A stretch of DNA of 64,000 nt from Candidatus Woesearchaeota archaeon (GTDB taxonomy: Archaea; Nanobdellota; Nanobdellia; SCGC-AAA011-G17; JAGVZF01), in the NCBI GenBank assembly GCA_018302785.1, contig JAGVZF010000013.1, positions 10,787 through 74,786 of the forward strand, read 5' to 3'. A program made the translations under genes and the position numbers. The notes beneath the pieces are model-generated. The model did not search any database, was not told where the DNA came from, and saw nothing but the letters and a program-made list of their open reading frames with translations. Positions 23,747 through 38,081 of the stretch are shown here, piece after piece; within the stretch, counting starts at the first letter, position 1, and each line of letters begins with the position of its first letter.

Positions 23747-23819
23747 GGGCTCGTGGTCTAGCGGTTATGATAATTCCTTGACGTGGAATTGGTCCCAGGT
23801 TCAAATCCTGGCGGGCCCA
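23747..23819 (+). tRNA. tRNA-Val (anticodon GAC)
   Basis: 73 nt: GGGCTCG/CGGGCCC acceptor stem, anticodon stem ATTCC/GGAAT with loop TTGACGT, T arm CCAGG-TTCAAAT-CCTGG, discriminator A. No encoded CCA. Confidence 0.9.
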
Positions 23820-27742: not shown

Positions 27743-28175
27743 TGTAGAATCTGGAGGAGATTCTAAAGCAGTTTCATGCACAGGTCCAGCTGGTCTTATG
27801 CAACTAAGTATAGATGCTGCAAATGATGTTAGAACTTCATTAGGCTCAGAATCAGAATATCCAAAAATTCAACATTATCAATTAAATGGACAAGGAAATC
27901 CAATATGCAGCTGCAGTTATTCCAAAGATTGTAGAGATGAGTCTATCGACTGGAGATTTAATAAGGATAAAAATGTTAAAGCAGGAACTCAATATTTACT
28001 TAAATTAATCAACAAATATAATAAAGATTTAAGGCTTGCATTATTGGCATATAATGCTGGTCCTGGTTCAGTAGACCAAGTCTGTCAAACTCCACCTACA
28101 AATATTAAAGAAATAAATTTTGATTATGATTCCTGCAAAAATAACAATATGTGCAAAAAATCTTTAATAAATTAA
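27717..28175 (+). CDS. Lytic transglycosylase (SLT) domain segment in a shifted frame, with no start codon upstream of the catalytic Glu
   Basis: The open frame from 27717 reads ELYINPVIDVESGGDSKAVSCTGPAGLMQL...LLAYNAGPGSV (E-S, GLMQ and AYNAG motifs). The first ATG (27798) lies after the catalytic ES. Confidence 0.6.
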   Translation, partial: ELYINPVIDVESGGDSKAVSCTGPAGLMQLSIDAANDVRTSLGSESEYPKIQHYQLNGQGNPICSCSYSKDCRDESIDWRFNKDKNVKAGTQYLLKLINKYNKDLRLALLAYNAGPGSVDQVCQTPPTNIKEINFDYDSCKNNNMCKKSLIN

Positions 28176-31100
28176 AAGAGCAAACAGGAATAGAATTAGA
28201 TATTACAAAACCAGTATATTTAGATCAAACTACAGTTACAGTATCAACAGAAACGCAAGTAGGATCTCAAAATCCTTGCACTAACGCAAAAATACTTAGT
28301 GATAAAGAAATAGAAGAAACCTCAAGTTATATTGATTTATATTGTACTGCAATAAATGAATTAAAGTCTTTAATTGATAATTATCCAGAATCTCCATTAA
28401 TTTCTTCTTCATATGAATTAATAGCAGATATTTATTTTAATTATCTAAAAAACAAATTATTAGCAAGAGACAACTATGAACTCGCTTTGTTAACAGCTAA
28501 TAGCTTACAAAAAGACTCAATAGAAGTAAAATTAAAAGATTTAAATAAAGCTATTGGAGAAAGCATAGAATATGGTCATGCATTATTAGATGATGAAGCA
28601 CTTGAAGTTTCACTATTAAGAGTAATTCCTAAAGAAGATAATGCAGAAGCAACATTAAGAATTGATTCAACAACAACTAATAAGAAAGTAAATGACCCTT
28701 TATTTGATGGAATTGGAACAGATAATAAAGGAAATTATAGAGTACATCTTATAGAAATACAATCTGATTTTATAAGAATTATAAAAACATATAGTAAAGA
28801 AGATAATAATGGTAAAGAAAATTTACCAGATCCTCAGAGATATACAATAACATTAAACAATAGACTGGAATTAGTTGAAGACAAATCAATAAATAAATTT
28901 CGCTTAATAGAATTACTTGGAACAGATACAAAAGAAGAAGCAATAGTAACTATTTTGCCAGGATCTGGAAAAGAAACAAGTACATCTGATTTCTCTTTAC
29001 ATATTCCAATTGAAAAAAGAGCTATAAGATTTACCCCAGAAGAAATAGATAATAAAATTGCAAGAACTAAAAGATTAATAGACAAGCTTGATTCAGTAAT
29101 TTCTAAATTAGAAAAGACATTAAAAGTGTGGAAAGCAACTTGCCTAATAACAATGGCAGTTTTGACAGTTAAAAATTCATTCTTCAATCCAATTAAGAAC
29201 CTAGCAAGAAGAACAGTCATGAGAGGTCCTGATGGTCAAAGCGGTTGGAATCAAATTTGCAGTGATAGACTCAGAACTGAACTTGATCCAAAAACTGGTA
29301 GGCCACGATTTAGAACTATTGATGAATGTATTGAGGCTAATGCTGATGAAATTGAACAGGAGATTTCTAACACAGAAAATGTTATCAAAAGAACAGAAAC
29401 TCTTGTCAAAAGCCTTGGAAATATTAAAGAAACTTCATCACAAGCTAAGTTATCAGAATTAATAGGAAATGATTTATCACAAGAACAAATTCAAAGGCTT
29501 AATGAAATCGGTAGACTAGGAAATGATGAGGCAAGAAATCTAATTTTGTTAAAGAATTCCAATCTAGACTCACCTCAACAAGCAGAATATAATAAAAAAA
29601 TCGAAGAGTACAAAAAAGAAGCAGATTTAGAAATTGGAATTCAGCAGAAACTTCAAAGTACAACTTATGAAGGTGAGGATAAACTTAGACTAGAATTATC
29701 TTTAAGGAAATCATTACCAGCTACAATAAAAGCTAGGGAATTATATGAATCAACCTCAGATATAGTAAAAAATTACATTACTGAAAATAATTTGGAAGAT
29801 AAAGACTTTAAACCAATATTCTTAGTTTATCCAGAGGAAAATCAGCCAGGGAATCTTACACCACAAGAACAAAAATTCAGCACATTCTATGATGAAAAAA
29901 AAGAAACCAATCTTAAAAGACTCTTTATTGGAAATACTCAGGCAGCCTTAAACGGTCAAGAGATTTATATTCAAACAGACAATAGAGGAAATATTATTAA
30001 TTACTATGTTTCAAGTGGTGGAGTATCAGATGATTCAAGATGTCCAAAATCTTTAGTTTACAGTGGAAGTCCAAGTGTTATTTATGATGATAAAGGTAAG
30101 CCATTAATAATCCCAATACAAACCCCTCAACTAGATAGTAACTATGCAGATTATGTAATATTTGGTTATGATCTAGACACTAAATTGCCAAATCAATATA
30201 GTATATTTAATGTTGGTCTTGATCAAATTATTTCTGAATTAAATAGAAATACAAGTGATGATTGTGTTGTAGAAAATAAAGAAAGCTTTGATGATAAAAC
30301 TCAGACTTCAAAAATAGTATCTCAAGCTTATAATGAAGCATTAAAAGGTTATCAAACAGTTCAAGAAAAAGGAATTAGCTCAAAAGTAAAAATACTTGGA
30401 AAAGAATACTTTGTTAATTATGCATCAAATAGAGTTGATGAGTTACTAAATCCACAATGCACAGATGTATTTAGCATTTCAGATTGCCATATTATGTTTG
30501 GTATTTGTGATCCAGTAATTTGTCCTACTTCAAGATTTGACTTTGGTAATACATGGAAAGTTGACAATGTTGTTCAAACTGGAATCGTTGGAAGTGTTTT
30601 ACTAGGAATTAAAAATTTAGCTCCATATGAACCAGTTCCTGTATGTTTAACTGGAGTTTTAGCAGGCCTCCAGAATATAAAATCTATATTAGAAGGCTTA
30701 AATGAATGTCTTCAAACAGCAAAAGTCAAAGGAGAATATGTAGGAATTTGTGATGCAATAACATCTATTTATATTTGTGAAACTGTTTGGAGGGAAGGTC
30801 TTGCATTATATAGATTAAAAGGAAAAGTAATAAACTGGATGAGTAAAGATATATTACATCAAGATCCTGATGGTGGAGAATATCTTACATTTAAGAATTC
30901 CTTAAAAAATGTTGAAGATAGTGCAAAATTCCTTACAAAAGACTATGCGCAAAATACATTTAAGGATTATGCTGGAAAGAGTTTCGATGAAGTTGGTTCT
31001 GTAATTTGCAGACAAGCAATTTATTCAAGCACTCCAGGAGTAGGCAAATTCCTAGATCAAGTCCTTCAACCAGAAAGCCCTCCTCAATTTACTGCAATAT

Positions 31101-33223
31101 TAAATGTATATCCATGGGCAACACTTCCTGATGAAAAAGGAAGAGTAACTCAAGAGCAATCTAGGTATCAAATTTATTATCATGTATATGCTGGAAATAA
31201 TAAAGCAATTAGATATAGTGTAATATTAAAAGATCCATTAGGAAGACAAATTTATGTTACTGAAAATCCAGAGACTGTAAGAAGAATAAGAAATAGCTTA
31301 GAAGCAGGAGATTATAAAGATAAAACTATTGATTTTGTTGCTGCATCTGGTTATAATGAAGTTTGTATTGAAGTAGATGGTATTGAAAGATGCGGCTTTG
31401 GATCTGTAACAAGTGCATTTTCATTTAATTTCTTAAAAGATGAACTAGTAAAAAATGAATTAAGTAAACCTATTACAAATGAAGAAGAATGTACACTAAC
31501 AAATTCAGGTTTAAGTTCAAGCATTTTATCATTAACAAATACTCAAAGTAAATCAAGTTTTGGAGCAACTTATACAGGTATTATTAGAGAATGCCAATTA
31601 GATAACCCAGGAAAAGGAACTAATGCTCAAGACTGGAAAAAAATTCCAAATAGTGATTGTGGAAAAGATGAAAGAGGCAGAGATTTAGGTTATTGTTGGC
31701 TTTATGTAAATCCAGAAGTACTTAACCTAGATTATGTACAAGGCAATGAAAATTTAATTCTTAACCTAACTGGTTTAACAAAAGAACAAGTAATTACTTT
31801 AGATGATGAAGAAAAAACCAAAGAAAGAATTCAAACATTTAGTTTAGATGAAAGATTTAATGAATTAGCTAGTTTAACTTGTGATGATATAGAAAAAAAC
31901 AAAAAAGAAATAATTACAAAATCAAATGATTTTATTAGAGATTCAAGAGAAGTTATGTCAAAAAGCATGGCTACAAATATAGTTGACGAATTACAGTTTA
32001 ATATAGCAAAAGTATATATAAAATTAGGAGGTTGTGACTATCTAAAAGTACAAGAAACTGAAGCAGTAAAATACTCTGAATTAATAACTGGGATATCTAA
32101 AGTTGCATGTACAGAAGAAATGACTCTAGAATTAAAACAAGAAAAAGAGTTTAGAGATTATAAAATTAGAGTTGCAAGCATATATGCACCTGAAATTAAA
32201 GGAAATAAGGCTGATCCTCTTGATTTCGACGTTGAACCATTTAATCCTACTAGTGGAATTCCACAAGCATCAGAAGATAAAAAATATGATTACAGCAAAT
32301 GCAATGTAGAATTTGATATTATGAGAAATGGTAAACAAATAGATTGCGTTCCAATTAGTTCCTACCAGTTATTTAACTTATTTAGAAAAGCATTAAATGT
32401 TAAAGGAATAAATAAATATTCAGATTGTGAAAATTTACAAATTAAGTTGCTACAGTGTAATCAAGATAATGTTAAGTTAGAAATTAGAACTAATGAATTA
32501 TCAAACTCAGATAAAAATAGAATTGAGAAAGATATTCGAGACGCAATTGCATTAGAAAATCAAAATGGAGATAATATACAAATAAATAAAATAAGTTATG
32601 TGGAAGGTCAAAGCAAAATATTATTGGAGCTTTCTGGTTCAATTAGTCTTAGCTTAAGACAAAAGCTAGATGAAATAATTCAACCATGTCGTCAAACTCT
32701 AGAAATTAGCCAAGCTGCAACAGACTACGAAGGAGAGTTTCAAGACACTGTAGATACAATAAGAGCAGATATTAGAAGTATGTTAAGTGTATTTGACCTT
32801 AATGCCATTAAAATTACAATAAATCCGATAACAGCAAATGAAATTAGAGGATCAACATTACAATTACAAACAAACGAATTTTTATCAGAGCAGCTTGTTT
32901 TAGATATTCAAGAATATTTAAACCGATATGGTATCACATTAGAAATATTAAATGCCAATATTATTTGTTGGGAAATTAACAAACAAAATATTATTAGTGA
33001 AGAAGAATGTCATGGCGAAAATGATGAAAATGCATGTTTTATAAAGAAAGATAAAAAAATTTTCGGATTAGGCTTTATGAAGAAATCAAGTTGTTTGCCA
33101 TGCCAAGATTCAACAACAATGGAAGATCTAAATAATGATAAAGTAAGATGCAACGATAGATGTAAAGACATAGCCCCCTTCCACCTCTACTATTCAGATA
33201 GAGCAAAATTATGTGTAGTATAA
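28151..33223 (+). CDS. 1690-aa Cys-rich giant protein, unknown function; GTG start in the track, no signal peptide of its own
   Basis: ORF track. TPR-like N-terminal region, one internal TM (about residue 330, CLITMAVLTV), and many paired Cys (CTDVFSISDCHIMFGICDPVICP...). Confidence 0.5.
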   Translation: MQKIFNKLKEQTGIELDITKPVYLDQTTVTVSTETQVGSQNPCTNAKILSDKEIEETSSYIDLYCTAINELKSLIDNYPESPLISSSYELIADIYFNYLKNKLLARDNYELALLTANSLQKDSIEVKLKDLNKAIGESIEYGHALLDDEALEVSLLRVIPKEDNAEATLRIDSTTTNKKVNDPLFDGIGTDNKGNYRVHLIEIQSDFIRIIKTYSKEDNNGKENLPDPQRYTITLNNRLELVEDKSINKFRLIELLGTDTKEEAIVTILPGSGKETSTSDFSLHIPIEKRAIRFTPEEIDNKIARTKRLIDKLDSVISKLEKTLKVWKATCLITMAVLTVKNSFFNPIKNLARRTVMRGPDGQSGWNQICSDRLRTELDPKTGRPRFRTIDECIEANADEIEQEISNTENVIKRTETLVKSLGNIKETSSQAKLSELIGNDLSQEQIQRLNEIGRLGNDEARNLILLKNSNLDSPQQAEYNKKIEEYKKEADLEIGIQQKLQSTTYEGEDKLRLELSLRKSLPATIKARELYESTSDIVKNYITENNLEDKDFKPIFLVYPEENQPGNLTPQEQKFSTFYDEKKETNLKRLFIGNTQAALNGQEIYIQTDNRGNIINYYVSSGGVSDDSRCPKSLVYSGSPSVIYDDKGKPLIIPIQTPQLDSNYADYVIFGYDLDTKLPNQYSIFNVGLDQIISELNRNTSDDCVVENKESFDDKTQTSKIVSQAYNEALKGYQTVQEKGISSKVKILGKEYFVNYASNRVDELLNPQCTDVFSISDCHIMFGICDPVICPTSRFDFGNTWKVDNVVQTGIVGSVLLGIKNLAPYEPVPVCLTGVLAGLQNIKSILEGLNECLQTAKVKGEYVGICDAITSIYICETVWREGLALYRLKGKVINWMSKDILHQDPDGGEYLTFKNSLKNVEDSAKFLTKDYAQNTFKDYAGKSFDEVGSVICRQAIYSSTPGVGKFLDQVLQPESPPQFTAILNVYPWATLPDEKGRVTQEQSRYQIYYHVYAGNNKAIRYSVILKDPLGRQIYVTENPETVRRIRNSLEAGDYKDKTIDFVAASGYNEVCIEVDGIERCGFGSVTSAFSFNFLKDELVKNELSKPITNEEECTLTNSGLSSSILSLTNTQSKSSFGATYTGIIRECQLDNPGKGTNAQDWKKIPNSDCGKDERGRDLGYCWLYVNPEVLNLDYVQGNENLILNLTGLTKEQVITLDDEEKTKERIQTFSLDERFNELASLTCDDIEKNKKEIITKSNDFIRDSREVMSKSMATNIVDELQFNIAKVYIKLGGCDYLKVQETEAVKYSELITGISKVACTEEMTLELKQEKEFRDYKIRVASIYAPEIKGNKADPLDFDVEPFNPTSGIPQASEDKKYDYSKCNVEFDIMRNGKQIDCVPISSYQLFNLFRKALNVKGINKYSDCENLQIKLLQCNQDNVKLEIRTNELSNSDKNRIEKDIRDAIALENQNGDNIQINKISYVEGQSKILLELSGSISLSLRQKLDEIIQPCRQTLEISQAATDYEGEFQDTVDTIRADIRSMLSVFDLNAIKITINPITANEIRGSTLQLQTNEFLSEQLVLDIQEYLNRYGITLEILNANIICWEINKQNIISEEECHGENDENACFIKKDKKIFGLGFMKKSSCLPCQDSTTMEDLNNDKVRCNDRCKDIAPFHLYYSDRAKLCVV

Positions 33224-33224
33224 A

Positions 33225-33962
33225 ATGCAATACAAAAATATCTTTAAGATAGTAAAAATAACGTTTTTTGATATCTTATTTATATCAGTTATGATAGAAA
33301 TTTTAATATTCTCTAGAATAAGGTTAAAAAATTATATAGAAAAATTTAATGAAGTAATCCTAAATTTAAATATTCTCCAACCACAAATTCAAAATCAAGA
33401 TCTACAAGCAATAACACAAGTAGAACAAATTGTAAATAATATAAATAATCTCACAAATAAAGCTATCCTAGAATTAATTTTAATTTTTATATTTGTTTAC
33501 TTAATATATAGTATAATTTATTCTTTTAAATGGAAAATTATTATTAAGAAAATATCTTTTAAAACTGAATTTGTTAAAATTTTAATAGTTTCATTACCAA
33601 TTTTTATATTATTATTATTAACAATATTTCTATATATAATGAATCTTAATTTATTATTTTCTATAATTCCATTAATTATTATTTTATTTATTATTCTTAT
33701 TATTTATTCAACAAATAAATCTTTAAAAGAATCTTTAAAACATCTTAAACATATTATAAAAAATAAATTTAATCTACTAATCTCAAACTTTATGTTAATA
33801 TCAATGTTTATTATAATCTCAATATTTCTATTTTCACTAATATTTTCAAAAATTTATACTAAAATATATTCAGACATGTTAATTGATGTAATAATGTTGA
33901 TTTTTACATTATTTATTATAAATATATTAAAAATTTGGCTTTCTAAAATAACAAATGAATAA
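33225..33962 (+). CDS. Polytopic membrane protein, extremely Ile/Leu/Asn-rich
   Basis: ORF track. Starts 2 nt after the giant ORF's stop. Confidence 0.4.
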   Translation: MQYKNIFKIVKITFFDILFISVMIEILIFSRIRLKNYIEKFNEVILNLNILQPQIQNQDLQAITQVEQIVNNINNLTNKAILELILIFIFVYLIYSIIYSFKWKIIIKKISFKTEFVKILIVSLPIFILLLLTIFLYIMNLNLLFSIIPLIIILFIILIIYSTNKSLKESLKHLKHIIKNKFNLLISNFMLISMFIIISIFLFSLIFSKIYTKIYSDMLIDVIMLIFTLFIINILKIWLSKITNE

Positions 33963-34128
33963 TGCGGGAGACAGGGCTTTCGTTAACTTTTAGTTTTGCT
34001 TAAGCTTTTTACTAAAAGCTTAGTTCGAACCTGCGCAGGCACTAAGCCACTAGGTCCTAGGCCTAGCCCGTATAGTCGTACTTTACTACATTTATTTAAA
34101 GGTACATTGACCGCTCCGGCACTCCCGC
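33963..34128 (-). tRNA. Probable tRNA-Leu (anticodon UAG) carrying two non-canonical introns (D-loop and T-loop)
   Basis: Minus strand: GCGGGAG-TG-CCG-GAGCGGTCAA..[hairpin GTACCTTTAAATAAATGTAGTAAAGTAC]..CGG-G-CTAGG-CCTAGGA-CCTAG-TGGCTTAGTGCCTGC-GCAGG-TTCGAAC-[about 47 nt]-CCTGT-CTCCCGC-A. It has a 7-bp acceptor stem and a class II variable arm. C at position 33 is atypical. Confidence 0.55.
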
Positions 34129-34210
34129 ATAAAAAGAACTAAATTTTGAATATATAAATAACTTTTTATTTCATAGTTAAAGGATAATATATACCAAAAA
34201 TCTAGAATTA

Positions 34211-34399
34211 CTAATAATCTCTATTCCAAGGATGCGATTTCTTTTGCCAAGCATATTGCCTTAATTTTGTAGTAGCCCCAAAACCGCAATGACTACATCT
34301 ACTTTTCTGCTTATGATATGATGGTTGCCCACAACGTCTACATCTCAAATGAAGTCTAAATCGACTTCTTTTACCCATTGATGCAGTACCTTTTGTCAT
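34211..34399 (-). CDS. rpl37e: 50S ribosomal protein L37e
   Basis: MTKGTASMGKRSRFRLHLRCRRCGQPSYHKQKSRCSHCGFG (zinc ribbon). Confidence 0.9.
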   Translation of the reverse strand: MTKGTASMGKRSRFRLHLRCRRCGQPSYHKQKSRCSHCGFGATTKLRQYAWQKKSHPWNRDY

Positions 34400-34401
34400 T
34401 T

Positions 34402-34632
34402 TTACTCAGGTGATATTAATACTATAGTATCCCCTCTTATAAACACTGTTCCAACTTTTTTCTTTAATTGATTATCTTGCCATTCTTCACTTTCAGTAAG
34501 CACAGTATTAATATGAATATCAAAAGCTATTAATTTCCCTATATATTGTCTTCCATTCTTTAAATCTATAACAACTCTTTTATTTCTTGCTTCATTTAAA
34601 GCATCTAATGGTCTAGATGATGCATCGTTCAT
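34402..34632 (-). CDS. Sm-like archaeal protein (SmAP/LSm)
   Basis: PLDALNEARNKRVVIDLKNGRQYIGKLIAFDIHINTVL...VFIRGDTIVLISPE, with the conserved LSm-L37e gene pair. Confidence 0.88.
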   Translation of the reverse strand: MNDASSRPLDALNEARNKRVVIDLKNGRQYIGKLIAFDIHINTVLTESEEWQDNQLKKKVGTVFIRGDTIVLISPE

Positions 34633-34766: not shown

Positions 34767-37700
34767 TTGAAATCTAAACTTAAAAAGAAGTTGGTATATA
34801 GTAAATTTTTTTATTTATTTTTATTTATTTTTATTTTATTTATCTTAATATTCACAATTAATAAAGTAACAAATTTACCTATTCAAAAATCTCCGTTAAC
34901 TTTGAATCCTCAAGGTACAATTGATACTTCAATAGGAACTCATTTATGGTTAATGGATGATTGTTCTCATAGAGATCCTCAGCGTGGTGCCCCACTTTAT
35001 CTCCCAGCTGATTTCAGTTACGACTTTATAGCTAATAATTTTGATGTTTTTGTGATTGGGGATTGGAGCAATGGTCTTGGTTATAGAGAGCCTATTGTTG
35101 AGGGATATATTAGTCAAATTAAACAAATAAAAAGTGATGCTAAGTTTGTATATTATTCTGATTTCCAGCAGTTTCTTTGGGAAGAAACAACATTAAATGA
35201 GATGGAAGATTCTTTTTTACATAGTACAGATCCAGCAGCCTTGAATCTTATTGCTAATGGAAATAACGTTATTATTGATTGGAATGATGATACAAGAGAA
35301 AAGTATAGGGGAGAAGGTGAACCTATTTTTAGAGTTAGTAGTTACAATATTTATAGAAATAATAATCCCATACCTATACAAAATAGACCATATGGGGCAA
35401 CACAAATTACTGATAATCCAGGAATAGGATTGCATGAATATGAAATAAAAACTAAAAGAGATAGTGGTCAAGAATATAGTTATTCATGGAAAAAATCAGT
35501 AAATGTGGATAATACCATGCCTAGTTTTTATTTAACAGATGGTTATGTTGAAGTAACTGAGAATTCCCCAAATTATAACTTAGTTTTCCATTTAAAGCCA
35601 AATATACCAGATACTTCTGGATTAGATGGTGTTTTGTATATAGATTTAGACCCACAAAACTATGCCTTAGACTTTGGTAATATTCCAAATGAAATTAATC
35701 AGATGACTTGGAATGGGAATGAATATGTATTAACTTTAAATAATATTCCAATGAATCCAAGAAGTCCTGGTAGTTCTGGTAAATTTGGTTATGTTTTCTA
35801 TTTTGAATTAAAGAATAATAATATTGCTGTAGCTAGATTACCTAAAGCAAACAATGAATATTATACAACTAATGTTAATAATAGAATTAAGGCTATAGCA
35901 TATGGTACTTACCAACAGAATATAGCTAGCTTAAGTTGGAGAAACTTTTATGTTCAACATGCCATAGATATTCTAAATAATCTTCAACCTTATTTGGATG
36001 GAGTATATGTAGATGAACCCACTTCAGACCTAAATACAAGAGGAGAAACAATTCCAAAAGACCCAAATGTTAATGTTGCAACTTACAATAGTAATAATAT
36101 TCAGTTTATGCAACAATTAAGAAATACAATTGGTCCTAATAAATTGATTTTTCATAATACTCTAACAGAAGTAAATTTGCAGCCAGATGCAGATGGAGGA
36201 CTTATAGAAGGTTATGTTTATGATACTAATATGCCTGGTGGTTATCTTCTCTTACAAACTTGGATATTCCACATGAACAAAATGTTAGAAGCTGAAAATG
36301 GGGGATTAAGCTTTGCATTACCTGAGGGATTTCAAAATAATTGGCAACTTAGGATGTATATGTTAGCTTCGTATTTACTAACTAAGAAAGATGGAAGTTA
36401 CTTAAATATATATGAATGGGGTTGTCCTAGTCCTTCAACACATATATTCCCAGAGTGGGATAATACTAAAGTTGGTTTAGGGCAAGCTATTGATAATCCA
36501 AATCTAATTTCTGAATTAAATTATGGTAGTACTGACTTATACATTAGAAGATATCAAAATGGATTAGTTGTTGTTAATCCAACAAATTCTACTAAATCCT
36601 TAAATTTAGGGGGTTTGTATAAAGAAGTAGTATTAAATGGTGCTGGAAATGATATTATTTTAGTTGATGTTGCATGGCCTTTAACAATGCAGGGAAATTC
36701 AGGAAAGATTTTAATTGCACAAGTTTGTAGTGATGGAACTCCATATGGTTATTGTAGTGTAAATCAACCATTATTCTGTAACACTAATGGTCAATTAATT
36801 AATAATTGCCAACAATGTAGATGTTCATCTCAACAAAACTGCCAACCTGATGGGAGCTGTCAAGCTATTAATTTACCTCCTACAGCAACTATAACTCAAC
36901 CAACTCAAACAATATTTACTGTAAATACACCAATAAATTATGCAGGAACAGGAACAGATCCTGAAGATGGAAATTTACTAGCTTCTAGTTTATGTTGGAG
37001 TTATGATATTATTGGAGATACACAAGGTTATTTTGATTTAAGTTGTACAAGTAGTGGGACATTTACTCCTTCAATTTTAATAAATAATCAGCCAACAATA
37101 TACACACTTAAGTTAACCGTAATCGACAGTGGACTTCTTACAGATGAAGATACAAAAGATTTAACTATAACTCCATCATGTAGTGATATAGATGGAGATG
37201 GTTATGGAAACCCAGGATCTATACAATGCCCCAATGGATCTCAAATAGATTGTAACGATAATAACATTAATATTAATCCATCAGTAATTGAGAATAATTC
37301 TATAAGATGCTCAGACAATATTGATAATGATTGCGATAATTTGATAGACTTAAATGACCCAGATTGTGTAAATCAATGTATTGATAATGATAGAGATAAT
37401 TATGGAAGTGGACTATTATGTCTTGGACCAGATTGTGATGATAATAATATAAATGTACATAGTAATATAACTTGTAATTACAATGGAAATAGTTGTGGGA
37501 ACTATCAATTATGTTTATTAACCTGTCCTGTCCCTCCAAATGAAATTTGTGGAAATAATATAGATGATAATTGTAATGGTCCAATAGATGAAGGTTGTAC
37601 TCAACAATTGCAATTAAGTTTACAACAAGGCTATAACTTTATTTCTGTTCCATTTGAATTAACTAATAATAATATAAATGATGTATTTGTTGGGATACTT

Positions 37701-38081
37701 AATGATTTAAGTAGAATCTATAGCTTTGATTCCAACTGGTTTGTATATAGAGTTAATCCTAATCCTCCAAGCACTCTAAATTCAGTAGAATCATTAAAGG
37801 GATATATCATAATATTAAATAATCCCACATCTGTAACAATTAGTGGAACTATAGATATAAATAAACAAAGAAACTTAAATCAAGGATGGAACTTAATAAG
37901 TATAAATAGCTTAACTCAGATTCAAATAAATACTGCTTTACAAGGTCTAGATTATACAAGTATATGGAAATTCGATAATAATTTACAAGATTATATACAA
38001 TTAAATCCTTCTATAGATTCATTAGAACCAGGAAAAGCTTACTGGATCTATTTAAATAACCCAGGAATATTTAATCCATAA
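34767..38081 (+). CDS. 1104-aa secreted surface protein: possible TIM-barrel glycosidase-like region, PKD/Ig-like segment, and MopE-type Cys/Asp repeats
   Basis: TTG start, then a TM/signal. YLDGVYVDEPTS (GH114-like, weak). PTATITQPTQ..GTGTDPEDGNL. Repeats CSDIDGDGYGNPG..DCNDNNININP, CSDNIDNDCDNLIDLNDPDC, CIDNDRDNYG..DCDDNNINV, and CGNNIDDNCNGPIDEGC. Confidence 0.5.
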   Translation: MKSKLKKKLVYSKFFYLFLFIFILFILIFTINKVTNLPIQKSPLTLNPQGTIDTSIGTHLWLMDDCSHRDPQRGAPLYLPADFSYDFIANNFDVFVIGDWSNGLGYREPIVEGYISQIKQIKSDAKFVYYSDFQQFLWEETTLNEMEDSFLHSTDPAALNLIANGNNVIIDWNDDTREKYRGEGEPIFRVSSYNIYRNNNPIPIQNRPYGATQITDNPGIGLHEYEIKTKRDSGQEYSYSWKKSVNVDNTMPSFYLTDGYVEVTENSPNYNLVFHLKPNIPDTSGLDGVLYIDLDPQNYALDFGNIPNEINQMTWNGNEYVLTLNNIPMNPRSPGSSGKFGYVFYFELKNNNIAVARLPKANNEYYTTNVNNRIKAIAYGTYQQNIASLSWRNFYVQHAIDILNNLQPYLDGVYVDEPTSDLNTRGETIPKDPNVNVATYNSNNIQFMQQLRNTIGPNKLIFHNTLTEVNLQPDADGGLIEGYVYDTNMPGGYLLLQTWIFHMNKMLEAENGGLSFALPEGFQNNWQLRMYMLASYLLTKKDGSYLNIYEWGCPSPSTHIFPEWDNTKVGLGQAIDNPNLISELNYGSTDLYIRRYQNGLVVVNPTNSTKSLNLGGLYKEVVLNGAGNDIILVDVAWPLTMQGNSGKILIAQVCSDGTPYGYCSVNQPLFCNTNGQLINNCQQCRCSSQQNCQPDGSCQAINLPPTATITQPTQTIFTVNTPINYAGTGTDPEDGNLLASSLCWSYDIIGDTQGYFDLSCTSSGTFTPSILINNQPTIYTLKLTVIDSGLLTDEDTKDLTITPSCSDIDGDGYGNPGSIQCPNGSQIDCNDNNININPSVIENNSIRCSDNIDNDCDNLIDLNDPDCVNQCIDNDRDNYGSGLLCLGPDCDDNNINVHSNITCNYNGNSCGNYQLCLLTCPVPPNEICGNNIDDNCNGPIDEGCTQQLQLSLQQGYNFISVPFELTNNNINDVFVGILNDLSRIYSFDSNWFVYRVNPNPPSTLNSVESLKGYIIILNNPTSVTISGTIDINKQRNLNQGWNLISINSLTQIQINTALQGLDYTSIWKFDNNLQDYIQLNPSIDSLEPGKAYWIYLNNPGIFNP

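What the first reader, a model, noticed from the sequence alone, without database searches (positions are those of the whole stretch)
33963..34128. 166-nt structured RNA best explained as a tRNA-Leu(UAG) with two non-canonical introns
This is the only GC-rich intergenic block here. Its ends pair perfectly (GCGGGAG/CTCCCGC plus a discriminator A on the minus strand). Reading the minus strand gives, in order, a class II tRNA: a D arm (CCG ... GGTCAA ... CGG), an anticodon arm CTAGG-CCUAGGA-CCTAG, a long variable arm, and a T arm GCAGG-TTCGAAC ... CCTGT. An insert of about 35 nt (a clean hairpin) lies in the D loop, and an insert of about 47 nt lies at the T loop/stem boundary. No intron is at the canonical 37/38 site. 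Multi-intron and split tRNAs are known in Thermoproteales, Nanoarchaeum and ARMAN-type archaea and are often missed by default tRNA finders. C33 instead of U33 is an oddity. The gene's 3' end abuts the stop of the 33225-33962 ORF with zero spacing.
Basis: partly seen in the sequence, partly recalled or inferred. Interest (0 to 1): 0.6.

Follow-up and report, generated by a model that had tools for sequence, protein, structure and literature searches.

The report
Twice-interrupted leucine tRNA gene
The 166-base block is a real leucine tRNA gene of a tiny Woesearchaeota-type archaeon, interrupted by two short introns in unusual places (D loop and T loop); this kind of gene is already known in archaea, though one intron carries a small repeat that may show how such introns spread.

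Summary
Confirmed. Window 33963-34128 (minus strand) is a tRNA-Leu(UAG) gene with two non-canonical introns. Intron 1 is 35 nt in the D loop (about 21/22). Intron 2 is 47 nt in the T loop (59/60). The mature tRNA is 84 nt (87 with CCA), not 88.

- **Covariance model:** a model built only from intron-less relatives matches the locus end to end (81.5 bits, E 5e-19), with two inserts at exactly these sites.
- **Fold:** the unconstrained fold shows bulge-helix-bulge (BHB) motifs at both junctions.
- **Conservation:** the spliced sequence is 79/84 identical to the syntenic intron-less orthologue, and all 23 cloverleaf pairs hold.
- **Machinery:** the genome encodes EndA and RtcB.
- **Need:** CUA codons are common, and no other UAG-type Leu gene turned up in the searches.
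- **C33:** ten independent metagenome assemblies carry the identical gene, so C33 is real and not an assembly error.

Both intron positions, and heavily interrupted DPANN tRNA genes in general, are published, so this is a new member of a known kind. Extras: intron 2 carries a hairpin-plus-tail repeat that is also found in five other tRNA introns here and across DPANN genomes. A relative has a 677-nt intron with a homing-endonuclease-like ORF at the same D-loop site.

The parts
33963..34128 (-). Whole pre-tRNA-Leu(UAG) gene, 166 nt, from acceptor G1 (34128) to discriminator A73 (33963). No CCA is encoded.
   Evidence: The relatives-only covariance model R1 matches 34128..33963 over model positions 1-84, at 81.5 bits and E 5e-19. 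ARAGORN calls the spliced form tRNA-Leu(tag).
34107..34128 (-). Exon 1 (gene positions 1-22): acceptor 5' strand GCGGGAG, U8 G9, D stem CCG, and D loop GAGCGGUCAA.
   Evidence: It is identical or nearly identical to exon 1 of the relatives.
34072..34106 (-). Intron 1, 35 nt, in the D loop (about 21/22): UGUACCUUUAAAUAAAUGUAGUAAAGUACGACUAU. The BHB has H = GGUC (34109-34112) paired with GACU (34074-34077). The bulges are AA|U and AU|A. The inner helix is GUAC/GUAC plus UUU/AAA.
   Evidence: The unconstrained MFE shows the 3-nt bulge, 4-bp helix and 3-nt bulge. The BHB scanner finds it. The covariance model places an insert of 35 extra nt here. All relatives read GGUCAAACGGG across this junction.
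34024..34071 (-). Exon 2 (gene positions 58-105): end of the D loop, D stem 3' strand, anticodon arm, variable arm, T stem 5' strand, and T loop UUCGAA.
34057..34059 (-). Anticodon UAG. It reads CUA and CUG.
   Evidence: ARAGORN calls it. CUA makes up 11.4 per 1000 codons in long ORFs.
34060..34060 (-). C at position 33, where tRNAs almost always have U.
   Evidence: The base is identical in 10 independent assemblies. The UAG-type orthologues examined all have U33.
33977..34023 (-). Intron 2, 47 nt, in the T loop (59/60): CUAAGCUUUUAGUAAAAAGCUUAAGCAAAACUAAAAGUUAACGAAAG. The outer helix is the T stem GCAGG/CCUGU. H = UUCG (34026-34029) paired with CGAA (33979-33982). The 3' bulge is AG|C. The 5' side AA|C sits in a relaxed internal loop. 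The inner helix is AGCUUUUAGU/ACUAAAAGUU.
   Evidence: MFE folds and the BHB scanner show the motif. The covariance model places an insert of 47 extra nt here.
33994..34021 (-). Hairpin-plus-tail repeat inside intron 2: AAGCUUUU-AGUA-AAAAGCUU followed by AAGCAAAA.
   Evidence: Six copies occur in this genome, all in tRNA introns in sense orientation. Paralogous introns lie in the tRNA-Lys and tRNA-Asp genes. At least 119 loci turned up in public genomes.
33963..33976 (-). Exon 3 (gene positions 153-166): C60, T stem 3' strand CCUGU, acceptor 3' strand CUCCCGC, and A73.
34151..34167 (-). Promoter-like word AAAAAG-UUAUUUAUAUA at -39 to -23 relative to G1 (BRE/TATA type).
   Evidence: Similar A-rich word plus TATA-like box at about the same distance before most of the other tRNA genes listed from this genome. 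This is an inference; no transcript data were available.

Best explanation
This is the genome's tRNA-Leu(UAG) gene, transcribed from its own BRE/TATA-type promoter as a 166-nt precursor.

Two introns fold into bulge-helix-bulge motifs with the neighbouring exon sequence:
- Intron 1 is 35 nt in the D loop. D-loop GGUC pairs with intron GACU, and a 3-nt bulge lies on each side.
- Intron 2 is 47 nt between T-loop positions 59 and 60. T-loop UUCG pairs with intron CGAA, stacked on the T stem.

The archaeal splicing endonuclease EndA cuts inside the bulges. RtcB joins the three exons into an 84-nt class II tRNA, and CCA is then added.

What is shown: the gene, the exon-intron layout, the BHB-type folds, the presence of the enzymes, and the need for this anticodon. 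What is inferred: transcription, cleavage at exactly these bonds, ligation, and function with C33.

Intron 2 is a copy of a hairpin-plus-tail repeat that fills other tRNA introns of this genome. It was most likely gained recently, because the syntenic orthologue in a sister genus has no introns.
For: - **Covariance model:** model R1, built only from 10 intron-less Leu genes of relatives, hits 34128..33963 end to end at 81.5 bits and E 5e-19. It shows two local inserts, 36 nt for 1 model position in the D loop and 48 nt for 1 in the T loop.
- **Fold:** the unconstrained MFE of the 166 nt gives the acceptor stem, D stem and T stem plus both BHB cores. Local folds of each junction agree.
- **Unique solution:** a BHB scan combined with ARAGORN gives one solution, introns at gene positions 23-57 and 106-152, called tRNA-Leu(tag). 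The reversed-genome control gave 0 calls in 284 kb.
- **Conservation:** the spliced 84-mer is 79/84 identical to the intron-less gene L005 of the same family, which lies in the same L37e neighbourhood.
- **Cloverleaf:** it is 100% paired across 11 sequences, and 14 of 23 pairs show compensatory changes.
- **Enzymes:** EndA is at C9:12034-12624 and RtcB at C12:7368-8660.
- **Genome context:** 24 of 31 detected tRNA loci are interrupted.
- **Need:** CUA is 11.4 per 1000 codons, and no second UAG-type Leu gene was found.
- **Population:** the gene is identical in 10 independent assemblies. These include strains whose flanks differ by 0.5-4%.
- **Promoter:** a promoter-like word resembling that before most other tRNA genes lies upstream.
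Against:
- C33 replaces the near-universal U33. No other preferred tRNA solution in this genome, and no UAG-type orthologue examined, has it.
- Neither BHB is fully canonical. In intron 1 the outer helix (the D stem) is separated from the central helix by 4 unpaired nt. In intron 2 the 5' cut lies in a 5x2 internal loop rather than a clean 3-nt bulge.
- The only EndA gene found is an alpha-type protein. It lacks the Lys-rich insert that N. equitans has before the catalytic His (PMC3239211). No beta subunit was found. The published model links relaxed-motif cleavage to such inserts (PMC5829648).
Confidence: 0.9

Rival explanations
1. This is a decaying pseudogene. A former tRNA-Leu(UAG) gene was disrupted by two insertions and carries a damaging U33C change, and CUA is read by another tRNA.
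For: C33 is unique among this genome's preferred tRNA solutions and the UAG-type orthologues examined. Intron 2 is a copy of a dispersed repeat. Both BHB motifs are slightly relaxed.
Against: All 23 stem pairs and all conserved loop bases other than 33 are intact. Both inserts sit exactly in cleavable BHB contexts. No other UAG-type Leu gene was found in a 96%-complete genome, although CUA is a common codon. The gene is invariant in strains whose flanks have diverged by up to 4%. A promoter-like word lies upstream. Most other tRNA genes here are interrupted in the same way.
Confidence: 0.06
2. The gene is functional, but one or both inserts are not removed by EndA. They would be retained as extra arms or removed by another nuclease.
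For: The EndA of this genome lacks the inserts linked to broad specificity (PMC5829648, PMC3239211). The 5' side of BHB 2 is relaxed.
Against: Inserts of 35 and 47 nt inside the D and T loops would destroy the D-T loop interaction of the tRNA elbow; this is general tRNA knowledge. Both sites show the 4-bp helix with 3-nt bulge spacing that EndA measures. Relatives carry the same mature sequence without inserts.
Confidence: 0.03
3. The region is another structured RNA, such as an SRP or RNase P fragment or a small RNA, and only resembles a tRNA by chance.
For: Default tRNA finders and Rfam gave no tRNA call on the raw sequence.
Against: No other Rfam family matches better than E of about 4, and those weak hits are noise. 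The relatives-only tRNA-Leu model matches end to end. Covariation supports the cloverleaf.
Confidence: 0.01

Closest known systems
Multi-intron tRNA genes with non-canonical BHB introns in Crenarchaeota/Thermoproteales and Nanoarchaeota (Marck & Grosjean 2003 and Sugahara et al. 2008, as summarised in PMC4090602)
   Same: One gene carries more than one intron, and the introns lie outside 37/38. Positions 20/21 and 59/60 are on the published list. BHB motifs form between exon and intron, and EndA plus a ligase do the splicing.
   Different: The host is an AT-rich (28% GC), roughly 1-Mb Woesearchaeota-type DPANN archaeon. There is no intron at 37/38 in this gene. The tRNA has C33.
Disrupted tRNA genes of DPANN archaea and their EndA types (Fujishima et al. 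2011, PMC3239211; Kaneta et al. 2018, PMC5829648)
   Same: The same superphylum is involved. Those papers report many interrupted tRNA genes and incomplete tRNA sets from standard predictors in Woese- and Pacearchaeota. Here ARAGORN found 14 genes, against at least 31 after intron removal.
   Different: The EndA here is a single 197-aa alpha-type protein. It aligns without gaps to M. jannaschii EndA over the C-terminal part of the catalytic domain, including the site where N. equitans has its insert. It lacks the Lys-rich insert of the N. equitans alpha subunit and has a 27-aa Lys-rich N-terminal extension. The published trend links heavy disruption to loop inserts.
Transposed tRNA intron families of Thermoproteales (Fujishima et al. 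2010, as summarised in PMC4090602)
   Same: Near-identical intron sequences occur in different tRNA genes and at different positions. Here they are Leu 59/60, Lys 59/60, Asp 37/38 and three more. Close relatives differ in intron presence and position.
   Different: The shared core is a short hairpin-plus-tail repeat. In related genomes it also lies outside tRNA genes, in tRNA leaders and between protein genes. Exact copies occur in several DPANN phyla and in Methanosarcina MAGs.
BHB introns of archaeal rRNA genes that carry LAGLIDADG homing endonuclease genes (I-DmoI, I-PorI type; from my own knowledge)
   Same: Relative G028 has a 677-nt BHB-flanked intron filled by a 224-aa ORF with two LAGLIDADG-like motifs.
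   Different: That intron lies in a tRNA-Leu gene, at the same D-loop site as intron 1 here. Intron 1 itself has no ORF, and its only sequence likeness to the long intron is the GACU forced by pairing.

Membership tests
tRNA, class II (tRNA-Leu) | 7-bp acceptor stem with a discriminator base, and a cloverleaf with D, anticodon, long variable and T arms | tested here: met
   After the two introns are removed, all 23 pairs form. ARAGORN calls tRNA-Leu(tag). Covariation across 11 sequences gives 100% pairing with 14 compensatory pairs.
tRNA, class II (tRNA-Leu) | Match to a tRNA covariance model | tested here: met
   The Rfam RF00005 model misses the unspliced gene. A model built from the relatives' intron-less Leu genes, without this sequence, matches over model positions 1-84 at 81.5 bits and E 5e-19.
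tRNA, class II (tRNA-Leu) | Conserved loop bases: U8, A14, G18-G19, U33, and T loop UUCRA | tested here: not met
   U8, A14, GG and UUCGA are all present. Position 33 is C. C33 is the same in 10 independent assemblies. It is a single deviation and does not remove the gene from the family.
tRNA, class II (tRNA-Leu) | Leucine identity (A73 and a long variable arm); aminoacylation by LeuRS | not testable with these tools
   A73 and a 15-nt variable region identical to that of relatives are present. Charging itself needs an experiment.
Archaeal BHB (EndA-spliced) introns | Two 3-nt bulges separated by a 4-bp helix, with the cuts inside the bulges | tested here: met
   Intron 1 has GGUC/GACU with bulges AAU and AUA in the unconstrained MFE.
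Archaeal BHB (EndA-spliced) introns | The same motif at the second intron | tested here: inconclusive
   Intron 2 has the T stem, UUCG/CGAA and a clean 3-nt 3' bulge AGC. The 5' cut lies in a 5x2 internal loop, or a 3x1 loop in an alternative pairing. This is a relaxed hBH-type motif.
Archaeal BHB (EndA-spliced) introns | The splicing endonuclease and RNA ligase are encoded in the genome | tested here: met
   EndA: PF01974 at 108 bits and PF02778 at 50 bits, in one 197-aa ORF. RtcB: PF01139 at 578 bits.
Archaeal BHB (EndA-spliced) introns | The intron is actually excised from the transcript | not testable with these tools
Transposed / repeated tRNA intron families | Similar intron sequences in different tRNA genes or at different positions | tested here: met
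   Intron 2 is 85% identical to the 59/60 intron of tRNA-Lys(UUU) at C45, and it shares its core with the 37/38 intron of tRNA-Asp at C2. Six copies of the core are all in tRNA introns.
Split or permuted tRNA genes | Exons lie at separate loci or in permuted order | tested here: not met
   All three exons are collinear within 166 nt.
Group I / group II introns | Match to the ribozyme models | tested here: not met
   No Rfam match up to E = 10 in 33800-34300. At 35 and 47 nt, both introns are also too short.

The most novel reading that the evidence does not exclude
One gene may record two different routes of archaeal tRNA intron gain.

Intron 2 would be a recent insertion of a small mobile hairpin-plus-tail element, AAGCUUUU-loop-AAAAGCUU-AAGCAAAA. 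Exact copies of it are found in tRNA introns, tRNA leaders and intergenic sites of Woese-, Aenigmat-, Nano- and Nanohaloarchaeota and in Methanosarcina. When it lands next to a complementary tetranucleotide, it supplies the inner helix of a new BHB intron. That would make it an archaeal counterpart of eukaryotic 'introners'.

Intron 1 would be the ORF-less remnant of a homing-endonuclease-bearing BHB intron that targets the D loop of tRNA-Leu, as still seen in relative G028.

All of this would be processed by a loop-less alpha-type EndA, against the current rule that loop inserts are needed.
Probability: 0.25. Interest if true: 0.7.

Novelty: new member of a known kind. Interest (0 to 1): 0.42.

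Why it matters
For annotation, the consequence is immediate. Default tools find 14 of at least 31 tRNA genes in this genome and miss the only Leu(UAG) gene found. Completeness and codon-capacity estimates for such DPANN genomes are therefore wrong unless introns at any position are modelled.

For biology, the gene is a compact test object for three things:
- Two slightly relaxed BHB motifs that must be cut by an EndA lacking the published 'broad specificity' inserts.
- A natural C33 tRNA fixed in a population.
- An intron built from a dispersed repeat, which bears on the open question of how archaeal tRNA introns are gained.

Tried and rejected
- **Default finders:** ARAGORN (default, and with -i) and Rfam (gathering threshold, and E up to 10) on the raw sequence gave no tRNA call at the locus. 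ARAGORN -i calls elsewhere in the genome were noisy.
- **GC-island scan:** with 807 islands it was too unspecific for finding tRNA genes and was dropped.
- **MAFFT alignment:** aligning the unspliced gene against intron-less relatives pushed exon 3 to the end of the alignment. I replaced it with the covariance-model alignment.
- **A 36-nt excision for intron 1:** this gives an 83-nt product that ARAGORN accepts. I rejected it in favour of the 35-nt BHB-defined excision, because every relative reads GGUCAAACGGG.
- **Second EndA subunit:** neither tblastn nor Pfam found one.
- **Automatic sorting of the 84 repeat copies:** my strict pipeline and a regex heuristic both under-called copies inside tRNA genes. 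The statement that roughly a third lie in tRNA genes rests on my reading of the flanks.
- **Identity of the repeat:** Rfam gave no family.
- **G028 intron ORF:** the PDB sequence search found nothing and Pfam LAGLIDADG_3 is below threshold. Support comes from NCBIfam and from the motifs.
- **Deaminase:** a CDA-type deaminase that could explain an A34 Leu tRNA was not found.

Full report
**What is in the sequence.** The window comes from contig C11 of a 953-kb, 28% GC, 48-contig genome that is 96% complete. On the minus strand, just upstream of the feature, lie an Sm-like gene (34402-34632) and the ribosomal protein L37e gene (34211-34399). This gene pair is archaeal. Record titles of same-order relatives read 'Candidatus Woesearchaeota archaeon'.

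ARAGORN and Rfam do not recognise the raw sequence, at the gathering threshold or at E up to 10.

**Is it a tRNA?** I used three independent lines of evidence.

- *Covariance model.* I built model R1 from ten intron-less tRNA-Leu genes of relatives, leaving this sequence out.
  - It matches 34128..33963 over all 84 model positions at 81.5 bits and E 5e-19.
  - It shows two local inserts: 36 nt in place of one D-loop position and 48 nt in place of one T-loop position.
  - This locates the inserts without using any splicing motif.
- *BHB scan plus ARAGORN.* My own re-implementation of the SPLITS idea uses acceptor-stem pairs, BHB candidates and ARAGORN on every spliced combination.
  - It gives a single solution here: introns at gene positions 23-57 and 106-152, called tRNA-Leu(tag).
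  - On 284 kb of reversed genome sequence, 6065 candidates gave no call.
- *Comparison with relatives.* The spliced 84-mer is 79/84 identical to the intron-less Leu(UAG) gene of a same-family genome (L005). It is 68-77/84 identical to nine others. Across these 11 sequences, all 253 pair cells of the cloverleaf form standard pairs, and 14 of 23 pairs show compensatory changes. None of 500 shuffles reached these values.

**Exact anatomy.**

| Part | Window coordinates | Length |
|---|---|---|
| Exon 1 | 34128-34107 | 22 nt |
| Intron 1 | 34106-34072 | 35 nt |
| Exon 2 | 34071-34024 | 48 nt |
| Intron 2 | 34023-33977 | 47 nt |
| Exon 3 | 33976-33963 | 14 nt |

The mature RNA is 84 nt:

GCGGGAGUGCCGGAGCGGUCAAACGGGCUAGGCCUAGGACCUAGUGGCUUAGUGCCUGCGCAGGUUCGAACCCUGUCUCCCGCA

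CCA is not encoded. Removing 36 nt at the first site also gives an ARAGORN-acceptable tRNA of 83 nt. However, every relative reads GGUCAAACGGG across this junction, and the BHB geometry gives exactly that product.

**Splicing motifs.** In the unconstrained minimum-free-energy fold of the whole 166 nt (z = -3.05), both junctions show BHB-type motifs.

- *Intron 1.* D-loop GGUC pairs with intron GACU. It is flanked by the 3-nt bulges AA|U and AU|A, and an inner helix GUAC(C)UUU/AAAGUAC stacks directly on the central helix. The outer helix is the D stem CCG/CGG, set off by four unpaired bases (GAGC).
- *Intron 2.* The T stem GCAGG/CCUGU continues into UUCG/CGAA. The 3' bulge AG|C is clean. The 5' cut AA|C lies in a 5x2 internal loop ahead of a 10-bp inner helix.
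- Folding each junction alone gives the same picture. So do the D-loop introns of the second Leu gene of this genome and of the same-genus relative.

Intron 1 therefore has a canonical core with a relaxed outer helix, and intron 2 is a relaxed hBH-type motif. The positions, about 21/22 and 59/60, correspond to the published non-canonical sites 20/21 and 59/60 (PMC4090602).

**Machinery and need.**

- The genome has one EndA gene of 197 aa, with both Pfam domains, and one RtcB gene.
- The closest solved structures to EndA are the N. equitans catalytic subunit, M. kandleri EndA and M. jannaschii EndA.
- In those alignments the protein lacks the Lys-rich insert that N. equitans has just before the catalytic His. 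This is the 'C-terminal-domain insertion' of PMC3239211 and loop L3 of PMC5829648.
- It aligns to the M. jannaschii enzyme without gaps over the C-terminal part of the catalytic domain, and with only small gaps in the N-terminal part. It also carries a 27-aa Lys-rich N-terminal extension.
- No second subunit was found.
- CUA accounts for 11.4 per 1000 codons in 316 long ORFs.
- No other gene with a UAG anticodon turned up in the similarity search or the scan.
- Upstream, AAAAAG-TTATTTATATA lies at -39 to -23. Most of the other tRNA genes listed from this genome have a similar A-rich word plus TATA-like box at about the same distance.

**Is C33 real?** The anticodon loop is CCUAGGA. No other preferred tRNA solution in this genome has a non-U33. 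The UAG-type orthologues examined have U33. One Leu(GAG) gene of a more distant relative (L013) also reads C at position 33.

Ten independent metagenome assemblies from ENA and JGI hold the same L37e protein. All carry the identical 166-nt gene, C33 and both introns included. Three of them differ from the window by 0.5-4% in the flanks.

C33 is therefore not an assembly error, and the whole gene, introns included, is at least as conserved as its surroundings. Whether C33 impairs function cannot be told from sequence.

**Evolutionary context.** Twenty-four of the 31 tRNA loci my scan recovered are interrupted, many at D-arm, anticodon-stem or T-loop positions. ARAGORN alone finds 14. This matches what first readers noted on another contig of this genome and what Kaneta et al. 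reported for DPANN genomes.

Within the family, intron content of the UAG-type Leu gene differs from genome to genome:

| Genome | Introns in the Leu(UAG) gene |
|---|---|
| G005 | none; lies about 1.4 kb downstream of L37e |
| G002 | none resolved at 21/22 or 59/60; a roughly 30-nt insert in the anticodon stem by inspection (the scan did not resolve it) |
| G003, G004 | one, at 30/31 |
| This genome | two, at 21/22 and 59/60 |

Intron content therefore turns over quickly.

**Intron 2 is built from a repeat.**

- Positions 3-30 of intron 2 read AAGCUUUU-AGUA-AAAAGCUU-AAGCAAAA.
- Intron 2 is 85% identical to the 59/60 intron of tRNA-Lys(UUU) on C45. It shares this core with the 37/38 intron of tRNA-Asp(GUC) on C2.
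- A loose pattern finds six good copies in the genome. All lie in tRNA introns in sense orientation. They include an A-U variant (AAACUUUU...AAAAGUUU-AAUCAAAA) in which the hairpin is kept by a compensatory change.
These are mostly Woese-, Aenigmat-, Nano- and Nanohaloarchaeota and 'uncultured archaeon' MAGs, with several Methanosarcina and a few Clostridia MAGs.
- By my reading of the flanks, roughly a third of these copies sit at the 5' end of tRNA introns. Others sit in tRNA leaders or between protein genes, for example directly upstream of r-protein genes on the opposite strand.
- Rfam has no family for the repeat.
- Earlier notes of this scan describe the same kind of hairpin-plus-tail repeat in other Woesearchaeota genomes. 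I treat those notes as leads, not as independent support.
- How the repeat moves, and whether it does anything as RNA, is unknown.

**The D-loop site of intron 1 is used repeatedly.** The same site is occupied in four genes:

- this gene (35 nt);
- the second Leu gene of this genome (38 nt, containing the A-U variant of the repeat);
- the same-genus relative (27 nt);
- G028, a same-order relative (677 nt).

The 677-nt intron has a perfect BHB and is filled from its third base to its last by a 224-aa ORF. That ORF shows two LAGLIDADG-like motifs. Pfam LAGLIDADG_3 scores E 0.004, below threshold. NCBIfam matches the endonuclease part of an intein-containing RtcB profile at E 3.9e-16. There is no PDB or Rfam hit.

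The four introns share only the GACU that pairing with GGUC requires. Common descent of intron 1 from such a homing intron is therefore only a possibility.

**Verdict.** The observation and the interpretation both hold. The object is a new member of a known kind. What lifts it slightly above routine is the combination of three things: a fixed C33, relaxed motifs alongside an EndA that lacks the known specificity inserts, and an intron made from a widely dispersed repeat.

Noticed in passing
G000 contig C11:8880-9018 (+), about 1.8 kb before the window start; also loci L003, L008, L009, L014, L015, L016, L018: A second tRNA-Leu gene has a 38-nt D-loop intron at the same site plus a 16-nt intron at 30/31. 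Its anticodon loop is CUAAGGA, which means anticodon AAG. Seven relatives have the same loop, three of them in intron-less genes. A34 tRNAs are said to be essentially absent from Archaea. No PF00383-type deaminase was found in this genome, so this would be an unmodified A34 reading CUU.
   Followed up: partly
Window 33994-34021 (-); loci L023-L122: Exact copies of the hairpin-plus-tail repeat AAGCTTTT-N(2-7)-AAAAGCTTAAGCAAAA occur in at least 119 loci of public genomes. They span several DPANN phyla, Methanosarcina MAGs and a few Clostridia MAGs. They lie in tRNA introns, tRNA leaders and intergenic sites. In some loci the repeat is followed by tandem 11-12-nt units such as ACTAAGCAAAA (L118, L062). 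There is no Rfam family for it.
   Followed up: partly
L004 (G028:C36), minus strand, about 1488-2248: A tRNA-Leu(UAG) gene of 761 nt has a 677-nt BHB intron in the D loop. The intron is filled by a 224-aa LAGLIDADG-like ORF that starts at intron base 3 and whose stop codon is the last three intron bases. I found no paper describing an endonuclease-bearing BHB intron in an archaeal tRNA gene.
   Followed up: partly
G000 C9:12034-12624 (-) and locus L001 578-1477: The only EndA gene is alpha-type. It lacks the Lys-rich insert of N. equitans and has a 27-aa Lys-rich N-terminal extension. Its neighbour is a 299-aa protein with a LAGLIDADG_3 domain and an ArsR-type HTH.
   Followed up: partly
Whole genome G000: ARAGORN finds 14 tRNA genes. 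After BHB-guided intron removal, 31 loci are recovered, 24 of them interrupted and several with two introns. Some loci gave several alternative solutions, so the exact anticodon set is not settled.
   Followed up: partly
G000 C45:15425-15556 (-): The tRNA-Lys(UUU) gene has a canonical intron plus a 59/60 intron paralogous to intron 2. The genomic sequence continues CCA after the discriminator, unlike the Leu gene.
   Followed up: no
L013 (G021:C29): An intron-less tRNA-Leu(GAG) of a same-order relative has the anticodon loop UCGAGGG. It is therefore a second tRNA-Leu gene in this order with C at position 33.
   Followed up: no
Window 23747-23819 (+): An intron-less tRNA-Val(GAC). It is the only tRNA in the window that default tools detect.
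   Followed up: yes
Window 28151-33223 (+) and 34767-38081 (+): Two very large ORFs flank the locus, of 1690 aa and 1104 aa. Per the gene table, the first carries an SLT-type lytic transglycosylase hit and the second a GHL15 hit. The second also has a Cys-rich repeat region.
   Followed up: no
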